Positions 2,213 to 60,100 of a stretch of 64,000 nucleotides of DNA are shown here, one piece after another (position 1 is the first letter of the stretch; the number at the start of each line of letters is the position of its first letter). The DNA lies in the NCBI RefSeq assembly GCF_018977255.1, contig NW_024704762.1:8370001-8434000 (forward strand), read 5' to 3'. The notes under the pieces were generated by a model that saw only the letters and a program-made list of their open reading frames with translations, was not told the DNA's origin and ran no database searches. The stretch comes from Callorhinchus milii (lineage: Eukaryota). The position numbers and the translations under genes are program-made.

Positions 2213-2870
2213 GCAACAACAACAACAACAACTTGGATTTATATGGTGCCCTCCACGCCGGACGGCGTCTCAGAGCGCTTCACAGTTGCGGATCCCGGGA
2301 CTGAGCCAATGGGGGGGGGGAGGGGGTGAGGGACCAAAGGCGCGACTGAAAAGAAAGGTCTTCAGCAGAGACCTGACAATGGGAAGGGAGGGGAGCGAGG
2401 CGAAGGGAGTGGGGAAGGCAGTTCCGGAGCCTCGGGGCGCAGTGGCTGAACGCATGGCCGCCGAGGGTGGAGCGGAGGACTCGGGGGACGAGGAGGAGGC
2501 CAGACCTGGAGGAACGAAGGCAACGGGTGCTGTTTTGAGGAGCGAGGAGATCAGAGAGGTCGGGGGGTGCAGAGGAGTGGAGGATCTTGAAATCGATCCT
2601 CTCTGGGACAGGGAGCCAGTGCAGTCTGGCCAGGACTGGGGGGATCGGAGAGCAGAGTTTCGTGCGGGTGAGAATGTGGGCGGCAGAGTTCTGAATGAGT
2701 TGGATTTTATGGATGGCAGTGGAGGGGAGACCGACGAGGAGGGCGTTGGAGTAGTCCAGACGAGAGATGACAAAGGCACGGACCAGAGTTTCAGCAGCTT
2801 TTGGGGAGAGATATTGGCGGAGTTCGCGCTTGATTGAGCTGGTGCGTCGAGGCATTTGAGGGGGCAACGC
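2213..2870 (-). mobile_element. 5'-truncated L2-clade LINE (3' end of ORF2 plus 3' UTR, (AAC)n tail on + strand)
   Basis: Peptide VISRLDYSNALLVGLP...QNSAAHILT...LHWLPVPERIDFKIL...LRSS...GGHAFSHCAPRL is typical of the L2 ORF2 C-terminus. Confidence 0.88.
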
Positions 2871-3194
2871 AATGGTTGGGCAGGTTTCACGCCCAATTGG
2901 ACGGGTGCCTAGTATTTGGTTTTTTTTTAAAAGAAAAACCCTGCAAAACTTTTTTGGGTTTCGAAGAGCTTTTCTTGTCACTGTTTCAGAGAAGCATTAA
3001 CCTAAATTGGTCACTCCGCTTCCCCCTATAATGTAATATAGGCGACGCGTAACGTGGGGCTATGTTTTGGGCTAGTATTCGTGGCCGTTGGGCTACAAAG
3101 TTATTTTAATTTCTGAGGGTTAAAAACTGCTCACAAATTCACAGGGGACGGACGACCAGTCGTGACAGCCACTCCGGAGCATTTGAACAAAGTC

Positions 3195-10731: not shown

Positions 10732-11358
10732 TTACGTACCCAGGGGGTGAAATGCCACATTCCCCTCTTTGTCAACAGAACTTCGTACTGCAGTTCCTGA
10801 AATATTTGACGGTGCATTTCCCGCGGTGGATTTCGACTGCACGACCTCCGTGATTTCTTCTTTCAGTTCCCCCAGATTATTCTCAAGGTCCACAATCTTT
10901 GGGGTCGGAGACTTGGGACTTGAACCTGAGATTTTCTTCTTCTGCAGGCGAGATTTCTTTAAGAATTTCTCATGTATGCTCTTGGGGGCACCCTTTACTT
11001 GGGTGTCAATTGTCCCCTGCATTACCGACATTTGGGATTCAGCATCCGTGGGTCTATTATCGCTGCTACTGGCATCTTCATCCACTTCCACTGTTAACTT
11101 GTTTTCCTTGAGCTCCAGTCCCTTGTCCTCATCCAGCGTGAGGTCAAATTGGAATTTATCACCCGTGCTGGGGCTATCCTTGTCGGCATCCTTTGCCCTG
11201 TCCTCTCTGGGAGCCGGTGAGGACGGGCTGTGAGGAATCATACTTTGGAACCACTCCCGGTTATCTTCAAGTGCGTCCAAAAGGTTTTGAGCATCTGGGT
11301 GTACCAGGTCTGCCCAGGTTTCCCATAGAGGGTGCACAATGTAATCGATAAATGAAAC
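10732..11358 (-). CDS. PDE4C: PDE4 last coding exon: end of catalytic domain, ERK site, FQF motif, C-terminal tail
   Basis: Acceptor cag|GTT TCA TTT; [24 protein letters not shown]...MIPHSPSSP...DKFQFDLTL...HPLGT, TAA at 10734-10732. Confidence 0.95.
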
Positions 11359-11459
11359 CTGTCCAAAAGGAACAAGATATGGTGAGTAAAATTGTTACAC
11401 GCGATCCTTTATTAAAGTCTGGAATGGAACCTTTTTTCCAATTTCCAATTGCCCAAATC

Positions 11460-11790
11460 AGTGGGACACAATCTTAAAATTAGAGCTAAACCAATTAGAT
11501 GTGAGATGAGATTTCTTCGCCCACAAAATACATAGTCAATTGACTTTACAGTATATTCTGTGAAGCGCTTTGAGACATCTCAAAGTGCTTCACAGTAAAG
11601 TGGAGTGATTGTGTATTTTGTGGGCAAAACACGGCAGCCAATTTGTGCACTGCAATGTCCCACAAACAACCATAGAATGAGCAACCGATTTTATTTGGGG
11701 AGGTTGTTGGCCAGGACACCGAGAGAGAGAAACTCCCTTCTCTTTTCGAATAGTGCCATGGGATCTTTAACATTCACCTGAACAGGTGAT
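11460..11790. mobile_element. CR1 fragment followed by a + SINE fragment and a - SINE fragment
   Basis: gggacacaatcttaaaattagagct (CR1-like 3' ORF2), then cccacaaaata...gtgaagcgctttgagac, then an inverted SINE core. Confidence 0.7.
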
Positions 11791-11915
11791 CATATCTGAA
11801 TGCAATTATTCATTGTCCACAACATACTAACTATGTAAGTGGTTTCCCTGACCACAGGGAAGAGAAAAACAATTTGAAACAAAGCCCATCCCCTTCCAAT
11901 ATTCTGCTCACCAAC

Positions 11916-12098
11916 CTGGGTCTTCTCAACCGAGGCACTGTGCTTGTCGCACATTGGGCTGATATCCATTCCTCGCTCCTGCTCCTGATCTCCTTGATAG
12001 AAGAACTCCACCATGATCTTATCCACCCACTTCCGGTACAGCTCCAGGGGTTTTGTGGGATTGCTGAGGTCTGCACAGTGAACCATATTCTGGAGAAC
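11916..12098 (-). CDS. PDE4C: PDE4 catalytic exon (183 bp)
   Basis: [61 protein letters not shown]; tttgcag acceptor, CAG|gttggt donor. Confidence 0.95.
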
Positions 12099-12518
12099 CT
12101 GCAAATGACAAGATGCTCATGTTGGAATTTCTGATCACTGTCTGTGCTGTTAGCTGAATTTGTAATGGATGCCAAAATTGGACTTAGTACCCCAAGCTAG
12201 GGAGGAGGTAACTTGATTAGGATTCTGGATGTTGGTTGCTCGACAGTGTATCCTGCCTGAAATTATCTTTATTGGTGGATGTTGGGTGAAGCTAGGATTG
12301 GGAGTGTTTTCTTCCTCTTCCCCCTCCATTGTCTAACAGTTTGCTGACATTCATTGTCTGAGCTCACATATGAAGATGGGTGAGACATCCCAGAGTAACA
12401 GGACCAGCAAATCCTCAGTCAGACTGGGGAAAATACCCGAGAATACAAAGTACCTTCAATATAAATCAATGCTTTGGAGTAATGTCGCTCAATATACAAA
12501 GAAATAAAATGTAATTTA

Positions 12519-12716
<198 letters not shown>

Positions 12717-12814
12717 TCACCAGAAACATCCAAACATCATACCATAGGATCTTACCAATAATTTAACAGTATATTATCTTTTCTCTTCTGAAAGACCCCC
12801 CCAAAAAAATGATA

Positions 12815-12965
12815 ATTTGGCTACTCGATCCATGACTGTTTGTGGGACATTGTTGTGCGCAATTGGCTGCTGCGTTTCACCCACAATATATACAGTAAAT
12901 TCACTTTATGCATCTTGAAAACATGATAAGGTGCTATATCAAATGCAAGGATTATTATTCTTATT
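12815..12965 (+). mobile_element. SINE 3' half
   Basis: gactgtttgtgggacattg...gcgcaattggctgc...aaatgcaaggattattat. Confidence 0.8.
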
Positions 12966-13154
12966 CTTAGTGAATCATACTGAGCTGAGTCTTTTTGGTT
13001 CTGTCAAAAGCTGAGCTGCTCCTAAACATCTTCATTATGACAGGAACATTTCTCACTATCAGAACTTTTTTTTTGGTTTTTAAAACACTTGGTCTCACCA
13101 CCAGGACTCCTTTCGAAGAGAGAATTCCAACTTTGGCCCCCTTTAATAGATAGC

Positions 13155-13440
13155 AGCAGCAACAACAACAACAAATTACATTTGTAAAGCGCCTTTCACA
13201 TCAGGAGGATGTTCCAAGGTGCTGGAACAGACAGGAATCCACACCCGAGCTGGTGGTTGGGATCAGGAGGGGTGGGAGCACAGGGAGGGTAGGGGGTAGG
13301 AGGGTGACCGAAGGCACGGTCGAAGAAGAGTGTCTTGCGATTGGTCTTGACGGAGGCGTGTGAAGGAACGAGGCAAAGCGGACGGAATTACAGAGGGTGG
13401 GGGGCATAGAGGCTGAAGGAGGCCAGATGTGGCAATGCCA
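13155..13440 (-). mobile_element. L2 LINE 3' fragment
   Basis: (AAC)n tail, gcgcctttcac...gtt ccaaggtgct end motif, and similarity to the 2213-2870 and 49363-49700 copies. Confidence 0.7.
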
Positions 13441-13464
13441 CACAGACATGTGGTCCTTACTCAC

Positions 13465-13619
13465 CATGTCGATGGTCATTTTGCGGAGGGACTGTCGCTG
13501 TTTCTTGGTCAAGTTCTGGAAGATGTCACAGTTTTCGTCCTGCAGCAATTTGAAGCCCACAGCCAGGTGATGGTTCTCTAACACGGATGTGTCGTTGTAC
13601 ATCAGTGCTAATTCTGAGT
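13465..13619 (-). CDS. PDE4C: PDE4 catalytic exon (155 bp)
   Basis: (N)[51 protein letters not shown]; cccag acceptor, ATG|gtgagt donor. Confidence 0.95.
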
Positions 13620-14098
13620 CTGGGAAAAATAGAGGCATGATGAGGATTAGAGATAAGGAGACACACACACACACACAGTGATCAGCATCAAAAAATGTGA
13701 TACGAAGCAAAACAGTCAGACCCAAAAAGCCAAACAGAAAGAGAAAAACGAATAAAGAGTAAAGAGAAGTAAGAGAGAACAGAGAGTGTTGGTTTAAACA
13801 ACTGAAAATATAACTTACAAATACCAGCATCTATCTGGCTTCTCTTAAAAATTGCTAACTTTATCCCAGAGGATAAATTACTATAAAAAATATGATGATT
13901 TATATACAGAGGCCAAGATATGCAGATTGCTTAAAAAAGAAGCGATTATTGTAGCCAAGAATTTAGAATGGGAAATCTAATAAGACTTCATAGAATAAAG
14001 GCTATTTGGATTGTTTGTATATAGAATAATGGATACTCACATTGAGAGATCCAGATGATTTAAATGTAACACAGGTACTAGAGTGTGATTGCACATTA

Positions 14099-14314
<216 letters not shown>

Positions 14315-14766
14315 TCAAGTGATTATTTCTCATGAATTGTGACCTACACTAAAAAAAAAACTTCTAATTTGTCACACGTAAGGCAAGTCAGCCCATTTGT
14401 TCCAGAAAGGCCAACGACAACAAGCAACGAATTACATTTGGATAGCGCCTTTCACGTCGGGAGGACACCGTTCTGTCCTTACACCTTCAAGCTGTTTAAG
14501 TGAATCAAGCATCCTGATCTCAACTGTCCTTTCTGGTTGACACTTAATTAAGATGCATCATGGAAACTATCAAACCTCATTTCATGGACAGTGCGCCTAG
14601 AAATTGTGCCATTACATCTGCTAATATCTCTGGGAATCGCCCACTTTCAGTTTAAAAAAAAACACAATAAAACTTTGAGCAAAAGGTCCCACTCAACGAC
14701 AGCAATGACACGGCGTCCCCCCACGGCAGAATAGCGTCCCAGAGCGCTTGCAGCTAAAGCGCTCAC

Positions 14767-14931
14767 CTGGAGTGCTGGTGTCAAGAGCAGGACATGTGTG
14801 GATTGTGCCACATCTGCACCATGGTGATTATTGTGGTAGGACACTTCGGCATGATAGTGGTCTTCAAGGGTGGTCAGATAAGTGAAGAATGTTTCCAAAG
14901 GAATATTAAAGGTCTTCAACAAGTCTCGCTC
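14767..14931 (-). CDS. PDE4C: PDE4 catalytic exon (165 bp) with YHN-x-x-H motif
   Basis: [55 protein letters not shown]; ctag acceptor, CAG|gtgagc donor. Confidence 0.95.
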
Positions 14932-15189
14932 CTAGAGGAAAAGAGGAGAAAGGAAAGAACTTCTGACTACATATACCTGTGCTATACCATGGTCCTTTTG
15001 TATTGCACATTTCTGAGCTGGTGCAATTATCAAATTTGTTGGAATATTTTTGTGGAAGTAGAAATAATTAGGAACGCAAGGTGAAATAAATTCTTACAGG
15101 ATGAGTGTGTGGTGGGAACAGTAGTGATTAAAAACTTGTGAATTCCAGGTCCACTTTTTTTTCACAAAGAAGAAAGCTCCTTAAATTAC

Positions 15190-15288
15190 CTGAAAAATTG
15201 CAAACATCGTGGCTGTTAGGGGCCTGCCTTCAGAATATTCACCCACTTTGAAGATATCCAGCCCCCAACTGTTGATATTTTCCAATTC
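15190..15288 (-). CDS. PDE4C: PDE4 exon at the start of the catalytic domain (99 bp)
   Basis: ELENINSWGLDIFKVGEYSEGRPLTATMFAIFQ; ctag acceptor, CAG|gtaatt donor. Confidence 0.93.
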
Positions 15289-15714
15289 CTAGAGACATAG
15301 AGGACATCAGCCAGAGTTAGTAACACATTAATCTAAGGAAGTGCACTGAACACTAATGTTATCGCAGTACTGAGAAAACTTTTCAAGCAAATGTGCAAGC
15401 TCTCTGAATCCCTCTGCCATTAGCCTGTTCTATACCCCACCTGAGTAGGTCTGATCTTGACACTGTGTTCCCAAAAATAAAAGCAAACATCCCATTTGCC
15501 AAAGCATCTGCATATTGCTAATCACAAATTGAAAAGCCTTGTATTTGTTAAGCAGAAGAATATTAAATCTAGATTAAATTGAACAAGTGATCCCTACATT
15601 GCCCACACAACACAAGTCAATCCACTTTACAGTATATCCTGTGAAGCGCTTTGAGACATCTCAACGACATGATAAGGCGCTATATCAAAAGAAAGGATTA
15701 TTATAACTACATAC

Positions 15715-15875
15715 TTTGGCCAGTTGGGCTTCCTTGGTGGTTCTTACACCGAAGCGTGGGATTTTGGAATTGGTCAGGGTCAAGCTGAGAGGCATTTTTT
15801 TCACAACGATCTGCGATAACGGCCACTTCTCCTCTTTTGATTGCATAGATGGCATTTCTACTTCATGCTGTTTGT
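15715..15875 (-). CDS. PDE4C: PDE4 exon: end of UCR2 and linker LR2 (161 bp)
   Basis: (D)[53 protein letters not shown]; ttttttcccaag acceptor, AAA|gtatgt donor. Confidence 0.9.
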
Positions 15876-16530
15876 CTTGGGAAAAAAAGACAGCATTATT
15901 TTTTTTTACGTCACAATATCTCTCTTGCAACAGGTCAGACCCGCAAGATTCCAAATCGGCATCAGGTCAAGTAGGTGAACGTCCTGTGTGACTTTCGGTC
16001 ACAAGTCAGAGCTGGTTACAGCTGGAGGATAGTTGGCTTCAGCACAGCGAGGCTTGAGGAGAGAAAATAAATCAGAGTGCTCTCTGCTGGTTGCAGTCCA
16101 GAGACCACTTCTATCGAGTGTACTTTGTGGCCAGCTGGGATGTGATCCTGGAGGATGCTTGTGGCCTGGAGTTTTAATTGGGGCTCAGTCTTGGGAAAAG
16201 GAACAGAAACTATAATAAAAGGCGTGTCATAAAATGACAACTGCGACCTTGTGAGGCCCTGTTTGGCTAGATTGTGTCGGGCGGAAAATACTTTAAATAA
16301 ATCACGGACCTCTCATAAATTACTGAGTATGTTCACATCACCTGCAATCAGGTCTTTGCCTGTGCCACACTTGATCCACTTGCCTAAGAGTGGGGACTTT
16401 TGCATCATTGCTGGGCTCCCAGAAGTGAAACAATAATTTCACTCAAATTGTATTAATGGGTTGTGCATTTACATCCAGGCACATTTCTGGGAAGGACTGA
16501 TGACCCATATTCAAATGGGGTTTCACTCAC

Positions 16531-16624
16531 CTAAAAAAGTGCTTGATATGAACTCTGAAACCTGGTTTCCTGAACGACTTGTTTCTGATAATTGTGTTAA
16601 TTCTCGATTCAGCATCCTTTTGAA
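16531..16624 (-). CDS. PDE4C: PDE4 UCR2 second-half exon (94 bp); entry point for super-short isoforms
   Basis: [31 protein letters not shown]; ccgcag acceptor, G|gtgagt donor. Confidence 0.95.
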
Positions 16625-22385: not shown

Positions 22386-22498
22386 CTTAGTGGAGGCCAT
22401 CTCACTGACAGAATGCCTGGTTTGCAAGGTCTCCAGCTGGTCTAAACACCAGTCAAGTTCCTCCAGCGTCTCGATGGCCAGTTTCTGATAGTTCTCCT
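22386..22498 (-). CDS. PDE4C: PDE4 UCR2 first-half exon (113 bp)
   Basis: (E)[37 protein letters not shown]; cctcag acceptor, AAG|gtaagc donor. Confidence 0.95.
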
Positions 22499-25393: not shown

Positions 25394-25443
25394 CTGACAC
25401 GTTTGCCCAGCAGTTTGAGCTTTGGTTGCATCCTGACGATCTT
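25394..25443 (-). CDS. PDE4C: PDE4 LR1 linker exon (50 bp)
   Basis: tttttcag|A AGA TCG TCA GGA TGC AAC CAA...GTG TCA G|gtgagt; phases 2 and 1 fit the neighbouring exons. Confidence 0.88.
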
Positions 25444-25756: not shown

Positions 25757-25830
25757 CTGTTCGGCGTCTTCTCTTGTAAATTTGTCAACGCCGCAAAGTT
25801 GTTCCTTACAGTCCGTAAACTTGCCAGCAC
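25757..25830 (-). CDS. PDE4C: PDE4 UCR1 end exon (74 bp)
   Basis: VLASLRTVRNNFAALTNLQEKTPN(R); ctgtag acceptor, AG|gtaagc donor. Confidence 0.93.
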
Positions 25831-32300: not shown

Positions 32301-33443
32301 GAACATCCCTATTGCCACTGTAGCCAAAGCTAATCTTTAGATGGGGCAGTGCTTTATGTTGTCACCTTTGGCCTCTGATCCTGTGCCTCTCTTCTCCCTA
32401 TACAGCTCCCAGTGAATCTATTAAGGATGCCAAACTGTAGTCTGAATCCTGCACTGAAGATGTAATTTGAAATATTTTTTCTTGGCCGGAATGTAATGGA
32501 TTTCAAAAGCACACCTCCACTCTCCCTGGTCTCTCACACACCAACACACAGGTCAGTTATGTCTCTTGGGTTAGTAGGCTGTGCTAGGTTTGCAAGGCTG
32601 GAAATTCTAGGGCCTCGGCGTTCACTTACTTTCCAAATGTCAAGGCTAGGACTGGCTCAGATTGTCGCGCTGCCAAAGCTGGCCTTGGGTGAGCCTTGAA
32701 ATAGCTACTCCTGGTAATGAGGGGACAAAACCATTGGACAGGTCAGTATTTTCCCACTGGTTGGACCTGGTACTTGTTGGTTCATGGTTCATCTTACCTG
32801 GAGACCTTTAAAGTCGTTTCCTCCACAAGTCTGATAATGACCCGCTGTGGCCCTTGCAAGTGCGTGAAATGTCTACAGTGGATACATTCAGCACAACTTA
32901 CATTCTCTGCAATGTGTGATAATTGCTCCTCTTGTGTCGTAATGGATCTATATAACTTGTGTTAAATTGATGAGCACCATCTCTACAATGGAGAAATGGT
33001 ACTTTCAAGGCCATCTGATATGCCAGTCAATCAACTAGCCTCCTCTGCCATTGTGGGCCACCATTTTACACATTAAAATTCATGTGTCGAGTCAGTACCC
33101 TTATCAGCCGTTTAGTACCAAGTGCCAGAAAATGATTCCCCTTTAACCCATTGTGTCCTGTACCTACAGGACCTGATGGTGAGTCGTATAACAATTCTCA
33201 AACCAAACTTTGATCTAAATCACCTAACATCATCTCAATGAGAATGAAACAAACAAGATATGTGTCCTGGCAATTTGAAAGTAACATATTTCTGGTGGAG
33301 GCTTCAGTAAAGGAATAAACCATTCATCTAAACTATGAGTCTCGTCCCACCAATTACAACAATTCCCACACATACAGCGCCTTTCTTTACATACGGATAC
33401 CAATGTGTTAACCTGGAGCAATGGGCTAAACAAAATCACTTAC

Positions 33444-33635
33444 ATGTCACTTGCGATGGAGGAGTTTCGGGACATGTTCTTGGGCGAGATGTCATAATCG
33501 CTGTCGGAGCGGTACAGGAATGATTCCCGCCGCTGACTGTGGGTGAAATTCGCCTGTAAAATGAGTCCGGAACCGGGACTTGTTTGAAGATCCAGTGGAC
33601 TGCGTCCTGCAGAGAGGCCATTTTCAACATCAAAG
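33444..33635 (-). CDS. PDE4C: First common long-form exon with UCR1 start and PKA site RRESF (192 bp)
   Basis: [63 protein letters not shown]; phase-2 cttccag acceptor, AT|gtaagt donor. Confidence 0.95.
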
Positions 33636-42706: not shown

Positions 42707-42885
42707 CGTCTCCGCTTCTGGACGATGTCTATGGGTCGGTTGATGGCGAAGGGAGAGCCGTGTGTGTTCCCGGTGCGGAGTCTGTCCGCTCTCTCCACCA
42801 CAGTCAGACACCCGGAGCCGCACCCGGAGCCGCACCCGGAGCCGCACCCGGAGCCGCACCCGGAGCCGGCGGTGGGGAGGCTCAT
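42707..42885 (-). CDS. PDE4C: Alternative first coding exon for a long PDE4 isoform
   Basis: MSLPTA(GSGC)x5LTVVERADRLRTGNTHGSPFAINRPIDIVQKRR(R); CG|gtaact phase-2 donor gives CGC with the UCR1 exon; GC-rich context. Confidence 0.75.
42809..42868. repeat. Five perfect 12-bp repeats (cacccggagccg) inside a coding exon
   Basis: Encodes (GSGC)x5 on the minus strand. Confidence 0.95.
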
Positions 42886-53440: not shown

Positions 53441-54199
53441 CGCCCAGAAAGCAATCCGCCAATCGACTAACATCCAGTTTCCTATTTATTACTAGGTAAG
53501 CAGAGTCTAACCTGCAAATGGATTCTACTCTCAACCACTCATTTCCCCAAGGAAGGGCCCACAGAAATACTTTGACAGACATCAAACTAAACCACAGGGG
53601 GGAAGAGAGATCCAGGATATCAAGAGGAGAGGAAATGGATGAAAATGTAAATCTAATGCTTCCATTTCAATCAGTCACATGAACAGAAACACACTGGAGG
53701 CTCAAGTGAGAAAGAGATCTCACCAAAGAGTGGACACAGTAATAAAATCATTTAAACCATTGTTCAATAAAACACCAGTGTATATATATATATAATATAA
53801 ACAGAACCTGAGTAACACCCAAAGACTATCAAGATCCTAACAAGTCTGGGAATTCAATAAGCAAGCGATGGCCAAACAAAGCCTAAGGGATTATCACTTG
53901 CTACTTAACGCACACCCCAGGAAACAAATACAGTAAATGTCGATAATAATAATCCTTGCATTTGATATAGCACCTTATCATGTCTTTGAGACGTTCCAAA
54001 GCTCTTCACAGAATACACTGTAAAGTGAATTGACTGTGCATTTTGTGGGACAAATGATAACTCATCACGCCAAGGCTAAAAGGGGCTCAGTCTCGAGTTA
54101 TCCCGAAGGTCTTTGCACACTGGATAATCTCACCCAGCCAGCATAGACCTTTTGGCATTTACTCACCATCACCCTGTGTGTGACTTACTCCTTACTCAC

Positions 54200-54267
54200 C
54201 AAATCCAAGAATGTCTCCTGTTGGGAAAATGGTTCACGGTCATTTTCAAATGGTCTTTGCGGTCCAT
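54200..54267 (-). CDS. PDE4C: Alternative first coding exon, PDE4D3/PDE4B4-type, with N-terminal PKA site
   Basis: gccATGG Kozak; MDRKDHLKMTVNHFPNRRHSWI(C); TG|gtgagt phase-2 donor. PDE4D3 begins MMHVNNFPFRRHSWIC. Confidence 0.9.
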
Positions 54268-54868
54268 GGCTTTGCCTCGCCTTCGTGACTCTGATCGGTC
54301 GCCCGGTCTTCACCGAGAGGGTCCCCCTCATTCAAGGGCTGCAATCCACCAAACTCACCAAAGCCATGTCTGCCCTCGGTTCAAAAGAAAAACTTGCCTA
54401 CTCTCACTTCATTCTTGTGCTGCTCTGTGGAAATGAACCCGTGTGAGCTGGCTCGCTGGCTGACAAGAGTGGATTTGGTTCCTGGTTGACCTATTTCGCT
54501 GGAACTGATAAGTTAGTGACACATGCAGTCACTGGAATTTCTACAGAGATTAAAACGTAGTTGCCATATACGCCCTTTGAGAGACCTGCAAAGCATTCCT
54601 CTCTTAACTGCACCCAAACCAATTAACAAACAATCATTTCCTGTTGGTTTGGGAGAGGGAAATGACACCTGTATTTACTTACAACACCTTGACTCAAGTC
54701 TCAACCTTCAGCCTGTTAGCTTTAACCCCACTGTGAGAGGCACTTCAGGGATGGAAGAAAGAAACAAACAAGCGAAGGGGATTTTGACACTTTTTTTTGT
54801 AAATTAAAATCCAACCCAGCATTCCTCTCACAAACGAACGAGCCTAGTTTCAAAGGTTGAGACAGAAT

Positions 54869-54876
54869 TGACGTCA
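54869..54876. promoter_or_regulatory. Perfect CRE upstream of the D3-type first exon
   Basis: TTGACGTCAA about 600 bp 5' of the ATG at 54267. Confidence 0.5.
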
Positions 54877-56944
54877 AAGGCAATTTTTTTTTCCCCTTCA
54901 GGGTATTTTCTTCAAAAAAAAGGACAAAACAAAGTACTCGATTGTCACCAATGAATCAGTTGAATTCAGTTCACCCCAAGCTCTGGTTTATCAGATCCAC
55001 TGCTACATGCAAGGTAGAAAGCAGAAACTCCTTAGCAAAAACTTTTCTTCAAACTTTTTTAAACCCTCAAAGTTCTGCAGTCTGTGTTTCCACTGATGGT
55101 CGAAACTCTCAGCATCAATCTCTTCAGCAAGTTCAGCAACAAACCAACACACTTTTTTTTCCCTCCCACAATAATGTTTTTAAAAGCAAAAAAAGAGTTC
55201 AACGTTTCCAGTAGGTCCTTCCACGGTATCAAGCCACATGGAATCCCATTGAAATGTGCTCTGTTTCCTCTCTCCCACACTTGCCTGAAAGCTTCCACTC
55301 CTCTGGACACTTCCAATAGACAAGAGGATCTGAATATTTCAGAGTCAGCTTTCTCGGGAGCCTCCTTCAGTGTGTGTGCATGAGCGAATGTTGCTCCTCA
55401 GATGAGCCTCAGACAGCCTGGGTGGGAACACTTGCTGCTGCTTCTTCGCAAACTCTGCCCGTTCAGTTACAAAAGTGTTGGAATTTAAGTGATAGAGTGA
55501 CGGAAGGATGCAAGTGGGCAGAGAATCCACAACACTGGGGACTTTACAGTAAAGGACGCAGTGGCGTTTACAGCTCAGAGCCTTATAAGGGGGAGGAGAG
55601 ACACGAGGGGTGAGTTCACTCGCTCCTGAAGCCCGCTTCTAAAGGAAACACTAGGAAGATCAACAACACAGCAGAACAAGCCGGCATTCTTTCCCTACCC
55701 TGCAGTCCCACTGTTAATAAATGCCTCTCCGGACAGACAAGTAAAACATGTACACACTGAGCGTCTGACGTATGTAAAACAGCATTGCATTAACCCCTTG
55801 CGATCCAGAACACCAAAGTGGTCTGAAAATAAGTTACTGAACAGCACACTTCAAGTAACCTTGTTTTTGTGTGTTCTGCATATGCCTCGAGTTTAGGAAT
55901 TGCATGCACCCATGCACACTAGGATTAATTGTTTTTACCAGAACTGAAAAAAAGATCGTTAATATTTCTCTCGGCTTCCTTATTGCTGAACTGGCTGGTG
56001 CTTTCAAGTTCTCTGGGATGTTGCCCTGCCTAAGGAGCGCTATATAAATGTAAATTGTTGTTGTTTTATCCGTGGAGGCCTCCAAGATGTACACTGGTAT
56101 GAAGAATTTTATATATAAATGCAAATTGTTGTTGTTGCATGCTTTCCGAGAAGTGATAGGTCTCATTTCCACGCAGTTTTACACATGGAAAATGCCATTT
56201 TATCTCAGTGATAATCTCAAATACTTTTGTTTTTTCCATGAGCAGTGGAAATTTGCAAAGCAGAACTGTACTGTTGTTTAACACGCTACCATTTAACCCA
56301 TGAGCCCTGAACACCAAGCCTGGACTGATGGATTAAAAGCTGTACCATTCCAAGCTCTGTCCAAATTACAGACAGGATGATGCTAAAGTAACTGCTATTC
56401 GTGGCTTTCAACGTGGGAATGCCCATGACCTCTTGAAGCAGTAGAGGAAAGCGAACATCCTCATCAGCTTGATCGAAATCACAGCCCAGCCAAAATCAGT
56501 GCACTGTGGGCTGGGCAAAGCTATAAGAGCAAAGAAAATTACAGTAAGCCTCACGTGATTCGTATCAGTTAATATGACTTAAGCAAAGTAAGAGTTATTT
56601 CAAACTTGCATAGAATATAAACTCTTGAATGGACTTGGGCAGATGTATGACTTAGGTGATTATACGATTTATACAGATCAGGCTTATGCAAGGTTTAAAT
56701 ATAATTATTTTCTTTAATTAACAATCTGAATGTGAAAGATGAAAGTCAAAGAATTCACGATACCCTCAGAGGTTGAAAAGCGTAAGAGAGATTAGATAAA
56801 TCAAGAAATAACCTACAATCTATAGGTTATAAGATCCAATAGATTGTAGAAAGATTGAGGGAAGTATACAGACAGTCCCACGGTCTTGAGATCCTGGCAA
56901 AGAAGGAGATAAATTACAGAAGGTTTCTCATCTTAGTTGGTTGT

Positions 56945-57190: not shown

Positions 57191-60100
57191 TGTACAGCAG
57201 CAAAAGTATAATTAAGATGAATTTCAAATCAGTTCAGGATTAGGGTGACCAAGATCCCAGATAGATGGGGTTTGAGCCCACTGACATGTGTTCGTTATCC
57301 TAGCTACAATAGTACGAGGAGTGGAATAGAGGGCATGTACGTACGTACACGGAAGAGAAAAGAACAAGTCAAGGGAAACTCCTCACCAGTTGCCAATGCT
57401 TGCCTCACCTCCTGGGAACTGACTTAATCCCAGCAATTGTAAAGTTCTGAAGGCGAGGCCCTCTATTGAGAGTTGCTTACGTTAGAGACCTTAGAGAACA
57501 TTCAAAGAATAATACACTCATTCAAAAAGCCTGCGCTTGGCACTGGAGTATAGAGCGAGTGGTGTCGGGTTGTAGCCTGGAGCAAGAAATCAATGACTAA
57601 AAAAAAAATGATTCATTGGAGTGCAAAGCTGACATTAAACATCACTACGTCAATCCATCAGGCTTCTTTTCTTATCGACGAATCCGCAAACAAATTGCCT
57701 CTCCGTCTTTCACAGTCGGCTGAGTGACACTGCCAAAGCAGTTGTGGAAGGAAGGACAAACAAAACATATAAACGAGGCCGGTTTAAGCAAAGCAGAACA
57801 ATGAACCCTAGTAATTCGGGCAGCTGAGTCGTTGCGAGTGCTGTATTAATCAAAACGAAATTTGAGACCTGAAAATAGTATTAATAATAATCCTTGCATT
57901 TGATATAGTGCCTTATCATGAGGTTGAGACGTCTCAAAGCGCTTGACAGAATATACTGTAAAGTGGACTCTGTGTATATTTTGTGTCCTTCAATCCCTGT
58001 TGCACATCATCTGGGAAGCCTGTATTGGACACCTGAGGACCCTTAACCTTGTATCAGATCAATGCTGTAGCTGCCCAGCAGTGCTGGTTGGGTCAGTATA
58101 GAGGGACCTCTGCCTCGCTCTCTTTAAGATCTTATGTTAGATATGCCTGGGACCATCCTAATCCAATTCTTAGCAGGATATCTCCACAGCATCAAAATGC
58201 TCCCAACTAGGTAGTAAGTGACTAAGCCAATCACATCGATCACATCAGTGATGGAAATGGAAGTGGAATGATGTTATTTTTATCTCCAAATCATGTTTGT
58301 GATTTTATTCTGATGAGCTGCAGTTAATGTTAGAACAACACTAGTCCTGATCAACGAGTTTTTAGTAATCTTTGTTTAACATCAGCCAAGCTGAGGACTG
58401 GTAGAACCAGTCGGCATGCAGAGACTAGCTTACAGAGATGAGTTTACGCAGAGCTCCTTATTAACAGTGCATTTGAAGCAGAATAGTTTTAACGTCCCAT
58501 AAATCGTTAACAGAAGGCTGAAAAGCTGCCTTCCCCAGTCTTCTGTGGAAGGTAACATTAAACCAGTCTCAATTATCTCGGGGAAGTTTCCTTCAACAAC
58601 TCAGCAGAAACTGATATTAATTCATTTATTTTAGTTTCCATGACGTCCGGATGCAATTATGCAAATAAGTGCATTAAACCAATGAAACTTGAGTTTGTTC
58701 CCTTTGCCTAACCCGAGGGCTACCAACTATGTTCCACAAACAGTCTGACTCTCAGCTCCCAAAGACCTGATGTTCATTTTTAGACATTAAGACGAGTTTC
58801 CATCTCAGGACAACAGCTGCGTAAATCTCTCTGTACATTCCCACTATCCTTTTTCTCGTCTCCCACTCATCCCCCAAGCACTTTGTCCAGTCTCTGCTCT
58901 GTGATTGACAGGCTGTGAAGTGTGCTGGAATGTTACAGGTTGCTCTGCTCTGATTCTTAAACGCTCTGTGACCTTCTCCCGATATGAAAAGTGCTCTATT
59001 AAAATGCAAACTGTTAACTGATAGCTTAGACAAGATTGGAAAAATACGAATTTGCAACGTGAAAGAAGACCAAGGTCCATCCAGTTCGCCTGCCACCATC
59101 CTGACATGCAGTGTCCCAAAGTATATATTGTGGCCCGAGATATTATTTCCTAACAGAAATCTATCTAATTTGTTCTTGAAAGAATCAACATGTTCTGCTT
59201 CCACCCTAGGGAGGTTGTTCCATAGGTAATAATAAAATATAACAATAAAATATAATAATATGTAATATATACCCACAGGAATATTGTTCCAAATCCCTGA
59301 GTGTCAGCACCTTGGGACGTCCTCCTAATGTGAAAGGTGTTACACAAATGTAATTTTGTATTGTATTGTAGGGAAAGATGGAAGAGGGGAGCACATTTAA
59401 AAAGACAGAAAATGTATGGGAATTTATGAATGGGAAAGGATTGAAAGCCACAGATATATTTACATCCACCTCTCAAATGAACATCCGGCCAGAGTAAACC
59501 AGTGGGTTATTTTTCCAATTCCGATTTGATCCTTTCAAGTCGTGCCAAGGATACAGAGCTGCCTGGAGTGTAACTCACATCAGTGGCAAAAGCATTGCAT
59601 CTAAAACCACTCCAACCATCTCCATCCACACTGACCAGATGAAAGGCTCCTCTCTCTTCTGGGTGCACTGACTTGAGTTTTGGGCTAGTCTCAAGCTAGT
59701 TCTCTGTGGATATACAGAACGTTCATTGTAAAAGACCTGGGTCGCTAACTCAGCACAAGTTTCAGTTCAATCCAGAGAATCTATAAAGGATATGCATTGG
59801 GGCTAATTTTCAGAAGTCAAGGTTTAGGTATATTGTTAATATCATTAATAATAATTACATTTCATATAGCGCCTTATCACGCCATTGAGGCATCTCAAAG
59901 AGCTTCAAAGAATATACCATGAAGCGAATTGACTATGTGTTTTGTGGGCGAAACAGGACAGAGTTGTTGGTACCAACTGGAGGGCAGCTTTACTCTATAT
60001 CTAACTTGAATTCTGAATTCTAATACATGACTCAAAGCGATGTGACATGGATAGACTACGTAAGGCAAGAGCTCACGAGTTGTCTGCCCATGTGTAATTA

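What the first reader, a model, noticed from the sequence alone, without database searches (positions are those of the whole stretch)
54200..54267. PDE4D3/PDE4B4-type 'RRHSWIC' first exon in a PDE4C-type gene
Seen: a 68-bp coding stretch missed by the ORF track. It has a strong Kozak ATG, encodes MDRKDHLKMTVNHFPNRRHSWI(C), and ends in a phase-2 GTGAGT donor in frame with UCR1. Established: PDE4D3 (MMHVNNFPFRRHSWIC) and PDE4B4 carry this N-terminus, with a PKA site (Ser13 in D3) linked to mAKAP anchoring. I do not know of it in mammalian PDE4C. Inference: the exon predates the vertebrate genome duplications and was kept in this lineage's PDE4C.
Basis: partly seen in the sequence, partly recalled or inferred. 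Interest (0 to 1): 0.7.

Follow-up and report, generated by a model that had tools for sequence, protein, structure and literature searches.

The report
Ancient PKA-site first exon of PDE4C
This short piece is a real, spliced alternative start of the elephant shark's cAMP-degrading enzyme gene PDE4C, almost the same as the start of human PDE4D3 and likely adding a kinase-controlled docking tag; database annotations of many other vertebrates already contain it, so it is old rather than new.

Summary
Observation confirmed, on the minus strand: ATG 54267, phase-2 donor after 54200. Contigs from 2 of 4 RNA-like runs (one study) join 54200 to the UCR1 acceptor at 33635. The gene is Callorhinchus milii PDE4C: NCBI name, tree (96/91; grouping with PDE4D rejected, p=0.00015), linked IFI30. 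The exon is already in predicted C. milii proteins (XP_007897039.1). The same exon type opens annotated PDE4C-type proteins of 28 other species: sharks, teleosts, amphibians, echidna. Its age is supported: this genome's PDE4D carries the human D3 peptide, and five first-exon types lie in the same order in PDE4C and PDE4D. No copy was found in the PDE4A or PDE4B stretches fetched. One crustacean-like PDE4 has the motif, and the scan earlier noted it in an invertebrate genome. Likely function: a second PKA site (Ser20) for AKAP docking, untested. Modest interest: it contradicts a 2010 model of independent, mostly mammalian exon origin.

The parts
54200..54267 (-). Coding part of the PDE4D3-type alternative first exon (22 codons + 2 nt, phase-2 end)
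   Evidence: Sequence; spliced contigs in X2, X3; start of P0126 and P0130
54208..54219 (-). Codons of R-R-H-S, a PKA consensus; Ser20 corresponds to PDE4D3 Ser13
   Evidence: spacing to the UCR1 serine is 41 residues as for Ser13/Ser54. Phosphorylation not tested
54241..54243 (-). Second in-frame ATG, aligned with the start of the PDE4D exon (would give a 15-residue N-terminus)
   Evidence: DNA alignment with L006; which ATG is used is untested
54194..54199 (-). Splice donor GTGAGT
54268..55000 (-). 5' leader, continuous with the coding part in contigs and holding short upstream ATG frames; contigs run on past 55000
   Evidence: table 8. Contigs cannot show the transcription start
42707..42885 (-). 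Next alternative first exon (NRPIDI type, phase 2)
   Evidence: Homology to P0132-type N-termini; counterpart in PDE4D locus; not checked in RNA
33444..33635 (-). UCR1a exon with the RRES PKA site (Ser61); acceptor of the first exons
32630..32710 (-). 81-nt in-frame cassette exon inside UCR1
   Evidence: Included in X1, X2, X3, skipped in X1, X2, X5; in P0126
29321..29357 (-). UCR1b exon
25757..25830 (-). UCR1c exon
25394..25443 (-). LR1 exon
   Evidence: Predicted, joints
22386..22498 (-). UCR2a exon
10732..16624 (-). Nine further exons, UCR2b to stop: 16624-16531, 15875-15715, 15288-15190, 14931-14767, 14260-14161, 13619-13465, 12656-12534, 12098-11916, 11358-10732; metal- and nucleotide-binding motifs present

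Best explanation
54267-54200 is a spliced alternative first coding exon of elephant-shark PDE4C, a duplication-born copy of the PDE4D3 exon, which gives a long-form cAMP phosphodiesterase a short N-terminus predicted to be phosphorylated by PKA at Ser20 and likely to dock the enzyme on an A-kinase anchoring protein. Shown: the exon, its splice to UCR1a, the gene's identity, the matching exon in the same position in PDE4D, and its presence in annotated PDE4C-type proteins from sharks to the echidna. Inferred: its own promoter; translation from 54267 (or 54243); a full-length mRNA of about 746 codons (773 with the UCR1 cassette); PKA phosphorylation of Ser20 and Ser61; and a D3-like local feedback loop in which cAMP activates anchored PKA, phospho-Ser20 tightens anchoring and phospho-Ser61 raises activity. 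Exon identity and homology about 0.95; PKA use of Ser20 about 0.75; mAKAP/AKAP9-type anchoring about 0.4.
For: Splice junction in 2 of 4 runs laid; downstream exons joined in contigs. NCBI names the protein whose first exon maps here at 100% 'PDE4C' (P0121). Tree of 20 rows, 571 columns: this gene with shark PDE4C 100/99, PDE4C clade 96/91, C+D 100/99; AU test rejects grouping with PDE4D, p=0.00015. The only IFI30/GILT match and a Jun gene lie on the same contig within 1.1 Mb (the human linkage is recalled). PDE4D locus exon 243 kb upstream of its UCR1a, same strand and phase. Five first-exon types in the same order in both genes. 41 of 473 fetched proteins with a recognisable UCR1a start carry the motif: 31 PDE4C-type from 29 species, 9 PDE4D-type, 1 invertebrate-type; all keep R-R-H-S/T. 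Ser13 and Ser54 roles in PDE4D3: passage in PMC7770493.
Against: RNA support is two contigs from one study, labelled 'RNA?' by the tool; X1 reads through the donor unspliced. No single contig links the exon to the catalytic exons. No protein, phosphorylation or binding data. The residues ahead of RRHS vary widely across PDE4C-type proteins and the Trp is Cys or Phe in bony vertebrates, so a D3-specific binding surface may not be kept; here D3 Phe9 is Asn and Asn6 is His. PMC7770493 itself doubts that PDE4D3 is the native mAKAP partner in heart. No such exon was found in 250 kb fetched for PDE4B or 150 kb for PDE4A.
Confidence: 0.8

Rival explanations
1. The exon is real and homologous, but it is kept mainly for its promoter and leader (tissue-specific expression and translational tuning of a long form); the RRHS serine is a regulatory site with no AKAP-docking role in PDE4C.
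For: Only R-R-H-S/T and the last three residues are conserved across PDE4C-type proteins; length runs from 16 to 64 residues. Leader of at least 730 nt with several short upstream ATG frames. Doubt about native D3-mAKAP pairing.
Against: 11 of 13 residues are shared with the PDE4D exon since the C/D duplication, and sawshark P0191 keeps NHFPNRRHSWIC: selection on the peptide, not only on the promoter.
Confidence: 0.35
2. The gene is really a second PDE4D or PDE4B copy, so a D3/B4-type exon is expected.
For: Raw best hits among solved structures are PDE4B and PDE4D, with PDE4C slightly lower; several fish and frog orthologues are named '4D-like' by their sources.
Against: Four PDE4 loci exist and each falls in its own group; AU p=0.00015 against grouping with PDE4D; IFI30 linkage.
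Confidence: 0.02
3. The exon reached PDE4C later by gene conversion or exon copying from PDE4D, or arose by convergence on a PKA motif.
For: Not found in the fetched PDE4A and PDE4B stretches of this genome. PMC2929239 proposes independent origin of first exons by sequence drift.
Against: Same rank in a collinear array of five exon types in two genes on different contigs; present across jawed-vertebrate PDE4C; a further shared cassette exon; an invertebrate-type PDE4 has the motif at the same place.
Confidence: 0.05

Closest known systems
Human/rat PDE4D3 unique N-terminal region (Ser13 PKA site, mAKAP and AKAP9 complexes)
   Same: Short phase-2 first exon spliced to UCR1a; core VNxFPxRRHSWIC; 41-residue spacing between the two PKA serines; same rank among first exons.
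   Different: Sits in PDE4C; 8 extra N-terminal residues if the first ATG is used; two changes in the 13-residue core; no functional data.
Predicted C. milii PDE4C isoforms XP_007897039.1 (P0126) and UniProt A0A4W3H2F2 (P0130)
   Same: Identical first 23 residues; same gene.
   Different: They include the 27-residue UCR1 cassette and end with a few different C-terminal residues from the window's reading.
Annotated PDE4C-type isoforms of sharks (RRH[ST]WIC), teleosts (RRHSCLG), amphibians and echidna (RRHS[CF]I[CG])
   Same: Same position, same PKA consensus, same junction to UCR1a.
   Different: Bony vertebrates lack the Trp; upstream residues diverge; none among 36 turtle, 23 marsupial or 2 lungfish long-form rows listed.
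Rat PDE4B4 N-terminus
   Same: Recalled to share the RRHSWIC end; its existence as a 659-residue long form is stated in PMC7291338.
   Different: Sequence not seen in any call; no counterpart found in the fetched stretch of this genome's PDE4B.
PDE4B5/PDE4D6 shared N-terminus (PMC2929239)
   Same: A first exon shared between PDE4 paralogues since early vertebrates.
   Different: That paper calls it the exception; here sharing is the rule for five long-form exons.

Membership tests
PDE4 long form | UCR1, UCR2 and a class I PDE catalytic domain with metal-binding His/Asp and the invariant Gln | tested here: met
   Open 15-exon model with RRES, YHN, HD, HCAD and Q motifs; Pfam PF18100+PF00233 on the matching C. 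milii proteins
PDE4C subfamily | Groups with PDE4C orthologues in a phylogeny | tested here: met
   96/91 support; AU rejects PDE4D grouping. No placental PDE4A-C or cyclostome rows were in the tree
PDE4C subfamily | Conserved neighbourhood (IFI30, JUND; linkage recalled from human) | tested here: met
   GILT at C21:9.485 Mb, Jun-family gene at C21:9.067 Mb; immediate neighbours not identified
PDE4D3-type N-terminal exon | Short exon ending RRHSWI + phase-2 donor, spliced to UCR1a | tested here: met
PDE4D3-type N-terminal exon | Position after the D7-, D4- and D5-type exons (labels recalled) | tested here: met
   Same order on C21 and C1
PDE4D3-type N-terminal exon | Own promoter / true first exon | tested here: inconclusive
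   No joint within 54200-55000 and an upstream in-frame stop; contigs cannot show a start, and an upstream non-coding exon is not excluded
PDE4D3-type N-terminal exon | PKA phosphorylation of the N-terminal serine | not testable with these tools
   Consensus present and conserved only
PDE4D3-type N-terminal exon | Phospho-dependent binding to mAKAP (AKAP6) or AKAP9 | not tested
   No AKAP sequence fetched, no complex job run
PDE4B4-type N-terminal exon | Sequence homology to the PDE4B4 exon | tested here: inconclusive
   PDE4B4 sequence not obtained

The most novel reading that the evidence does not exclude
The PDE4 first-exon array is an ancient, ordered cassette: five long-form N-terminal exons and a UCR1 cassette exon were copied whole in the vertebrate genome duplications and then lost gene by gene, and the D3-type PKA exon goes back to the bilaterian ancestor. 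PDE4 'isoform-unique' N-termini are then paralogous modules, and D3-type AKAP anchoring could be served by PDE4C in fish, amphibians and monotremes and by dunce-type PDE4 in arthropods, overturning the published view of independent, mostly mammalian origin.
Probability: 0.6. Interest if true: 0.45.

Novelty: new member of a known kind. Interest (0 to 1): 0.25.

Why it matters
PDE4 N-termini set where cAMP is degraded and are treated as gene-specific. A D3-type PKA site in PDE4C of most jawed-vertebrate groups means fish and frog models have a second candidate for D3-type anchoring, that antibodies or peptides aimed at the D3 N-terminus may cross-react there, and that the one evolutionary study read (PMC2929239) underestimates the age of these exons. 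The natural Trp/Cys and upstream variants give a ready series for mapping AKAP binding. The exon itself is already in sequence databases, so the gain is interpretive.

Tried and rejected
No holder was listed as RNA on record; the 'RNA?' runs were taken as RNA because their contigs skip introns at CT..AC ends. Best hit among solved structures does not separate the subfamilies; one search was out of frame and found nothing. The tree is void (my script overwrote an input file); one search gave only a quick tree; one search is the one used, and its window model carried one surplus Glu, corrected. The search with P0126 residues 1-40 had only 5 candidates and added one species. The protein search of the own genome with the 22 residues found only the exon itself and missed the PDE4D copy. 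The metagenome scan for a spliced junction pattern gave 1 match, with no RRHS or PDE4 context. The Atlas look-up of P0492 did not complete. The original PDE4B4 and mAKAP papers were not held. Absence of the exon from turtle, marsupial, lungfish, coelacanth and placental rows is absence from listed annotations only (at most 15 members per cluster shown), not from genomes. In one search the script labels D5type and D7type are swapped relative to the names used in this report. No complex prediction was run.

Full report
1. Observation. The feature lies on the minus strand. From 54267 to 54200 there are 68 bases: a strong-context ATG, 22 codons (MDRKDHLKMTVNHFPNRRHSWI), two more bases and the donor GTGAGT. 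The open frame is 37 codons, so an in-frame stop lies 15 codons upstream. The UCR1a exon begins at 33635 after a pyrimidine tract and AG, in phase 2, completing a Cys codon. Four runs were laid on 54100-55000: contigs of X2 and X3 stop at 54200 and continue with the first 29 bases of UCR1a, X1's contig is unspliced across the donor, X4 laid nothing; all four are one study and are only guessed to be RNA. Their contigs skip the downstream introns at CT..AC ends, which is what spliced RNA gives. The similarity to the PDE4D exon is far above background: 56 against a next best of 24 among 53,622 candidate frames. The genome-wide pattern count alone is not informative (3 matches, 3 in the control).

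2. The gene. Fifteen exons from 54267 to 10732 give an open long-form PDE4 with UCR1, UCR2 and the catalytic motifs (one boundary corrected to 15875, about 746 codons). UCR1a matches Callorhinchus milii proteins at 100%, and NCBI names one whose first exon maps upstream here 'PDE4C' (P0121). The genome holds four PDE4 loci, on C21 (this), C1, C5 and C29. In a 20-row tree this gene joins shark PDE4C (100/99) within a PDE4C clade (96/91); C1 joins PDE4D (100/98); forcing this gene into PDE4D is rejected (p-AU 0.00015). C5 grouped with a named PDE4B only in the quick tree (80); the PDE4A label for C29 rests on elimination and recall. The rows were my pick from fetched proteins and lack placental PDE4A-C and cyclostomes. 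The one GILT/IFI30 match and a Jun gene are on C21, and other Jun genes on C5 and C29, as recalled for human PDE4C, B and A. Solved-structure scores do not separate the subfamilies.

3. Already annotated, and widespread. P0126 (XP_007897039.1) and P0130 (A0A4W3H2F2) begin with exactly this exon. Of 524 proteins fetched, 473 have a recognisable UCR1a start and 41 of those carry RRH[ST][WCF][IL][CG] directly before it: 31 with a PDE4C-type UCR1a from 29 species (this one, 6 sharks, 9 teleosts, 12 amphibians, the echidna Tachyglossus), 9 PDE4D-type (a bird, salmonids and pike) and one invertebrate-type. Some of the 31 are named '4D-like' or left unnamed by their sources; 6 were placed in the PDE4C clade and 3 more, the rest are typed by UCR1a sequence. 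None of 36 turtle, 23 marsupial or 2 lungfish long-form rows has it; these are partial listings. Cartilaginous fishes keep the Trp; bony vertebrates have Cys or Phe.

4. Age. The PDE4D locus has the exon 243 kb upstream of its UCR1a, encoding MMHVNNFPFRRHSWI; its first 14 residues equal the human PDE4D3 peptide printed in PMC2173774 (passage seen). The window's core shares 11 of 13 residues with it, and the second ATG at 54243 aligns with the D3 start. Five first-exon types lie in the same order in both genes: D7-, D4-, D5-, D3- and NRPIDI-type (type names recalled). On C21 they are at window positions about 90,000, 82,300, 70,500, 54,200 and 42,800; on C1 at 121.825, 121.854, 121.950, 122.050 and 122.182 Mb (the last is a weak hit, E 0.1, confirmed by reading L070). 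C29 has four of the five types and C5 two, in the same order, but no D3-type exon in the stretches fetched. So origin before the C/D duplication is shown. An older origin is suggested by P0492, an unnamed protein whose UCR1 is closest to crayfish (77 of 86 identical) and which has RRRHSWICG directly before UCR1a; it is one sequence, with unknown exon structure. An earlier AI note of this scan reports the same exon type in arthropods and amphioxus; I did not check its examples. The PDE4B4 sequence was not seen in any call.

5. Mechanism. Most likely the exon is driven by its own promoter and yields a long-form PDE4C with two PKA sites, Ser20 and Ser61, 41 residues apart like Ser13 and Ser54 of PDE4D3. 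For PDE4D3, Ser13 phosphorylation enhances mAKAP binding and Ser54 raises activity, closing a local feedback loop; the same review warns that D3 may not be the native cardiac partner (PMC7770493, passages; mAKAP and AKAP9 binding also in PMC10261250, passage). Transfer to PDE4C is inference. All 41 variants keep R-R-H-S/T while the residues before it drift, so the phosphosite is more secure than the binding partner. The leader is at least 730 bases with short upstream frames.

6. Literature. PMC2929239 (parts 1-4 of 6 read: abstract, background, results, conclusions; not methods, references or supplements, which may hold relevant alignments) sampled no cartilaginous fish in the text read, lists two conserved PDE4C long forms, finds PDE4D3 mainly in mammals, attributes first exons to sequence drift and treats B5/D6 as the one shared N-terminus. 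The results here disagree. Ten searches listed no paper describing a D3-type exon in PDE4C; most hits were seen as listings only, passages were read in PMC7460819, PMC7291338 and PMC11820465, and the library lacks most subscription papers, including the original PDE4B4 and mAKAP papers.

7. Verdict. Real, expressed, correctly identified, but already in database annotations and shared by most jawed-vertebrate groups sampled; a new member of a known kind. Interest 0.25; the wider reading (an ancient, ordered exon array reaching back to bilaterians) would merit about 0.45.

Noticed in passing
window 32630-32710 (-); G000:C1 about 122,308,516-122,308,587 (+): An 81-nt in-frame cassette exon inside UCR1, between the PKA-site exon and UCR1b, alternatively spliced. 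The 27-residue insert is in 27 of 415 fetched proteins (cartilaginous-fish PDE4C and one unnamed); a homologous AG/GT-flanked exon lies in this genome's PDE4D, and related inserts occur in three other proteins, two of them teleost PDE4D-type. It could alter UCR1 dimerisation or PKA activation.
   Followed up: partly
proteins P0017, P0044, P0087 and others: Teleost PDE4C-type proteins carry a different, 14-residue insert at the same UCR1 position (19 of 415 rows), and an aphid protein a 12-residue one: a recurrent insertion point.
   Followed up: no
G000:C5:3,570,123-3,575,045: In the PDE4B-type locus six catalytic exons lie on the strand opposite to the rest of the gene and two of them occur twice: an inverted duplication or an assembly error.
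   Followed up: no
window 42707-42885 (-): NRPIDI-type first exon containing a five-fold GSGC repeat; the type occurs in PDE4C, PDE4D and apparently PDE4A loci here and in PDE4C up to marsupials.
   Followed up: partly
G000:C21 about 8,459,953 (window position about 89,953): Run X1 splices the D7-type first exon to the same UCR1a acceptor, so at least two first exons are in use.
   Followed up: yes
window 11916-12098 and 14767-14931 (-): The catalytic domain differs from the three paralogues at usually conserved places (WVDKI for WTDRI; HNNHHG for HNNIHA/HNSLHA), in line with its longer branch; possible effect on inhibitor binding untested.
   Followed up: no
window 10732-10760 (-): The window's last codons differ from the C-termini of P0126 and P0130: a small sequence or splice difference.
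   Followed up: no
window 2283-2996 (-), 58755-59303 (-) and many introns: Fragments that look like LINE reverse-transcriptase C-termini and a recurrent short interspersed repeat (identification from recall).
   Followed up: no
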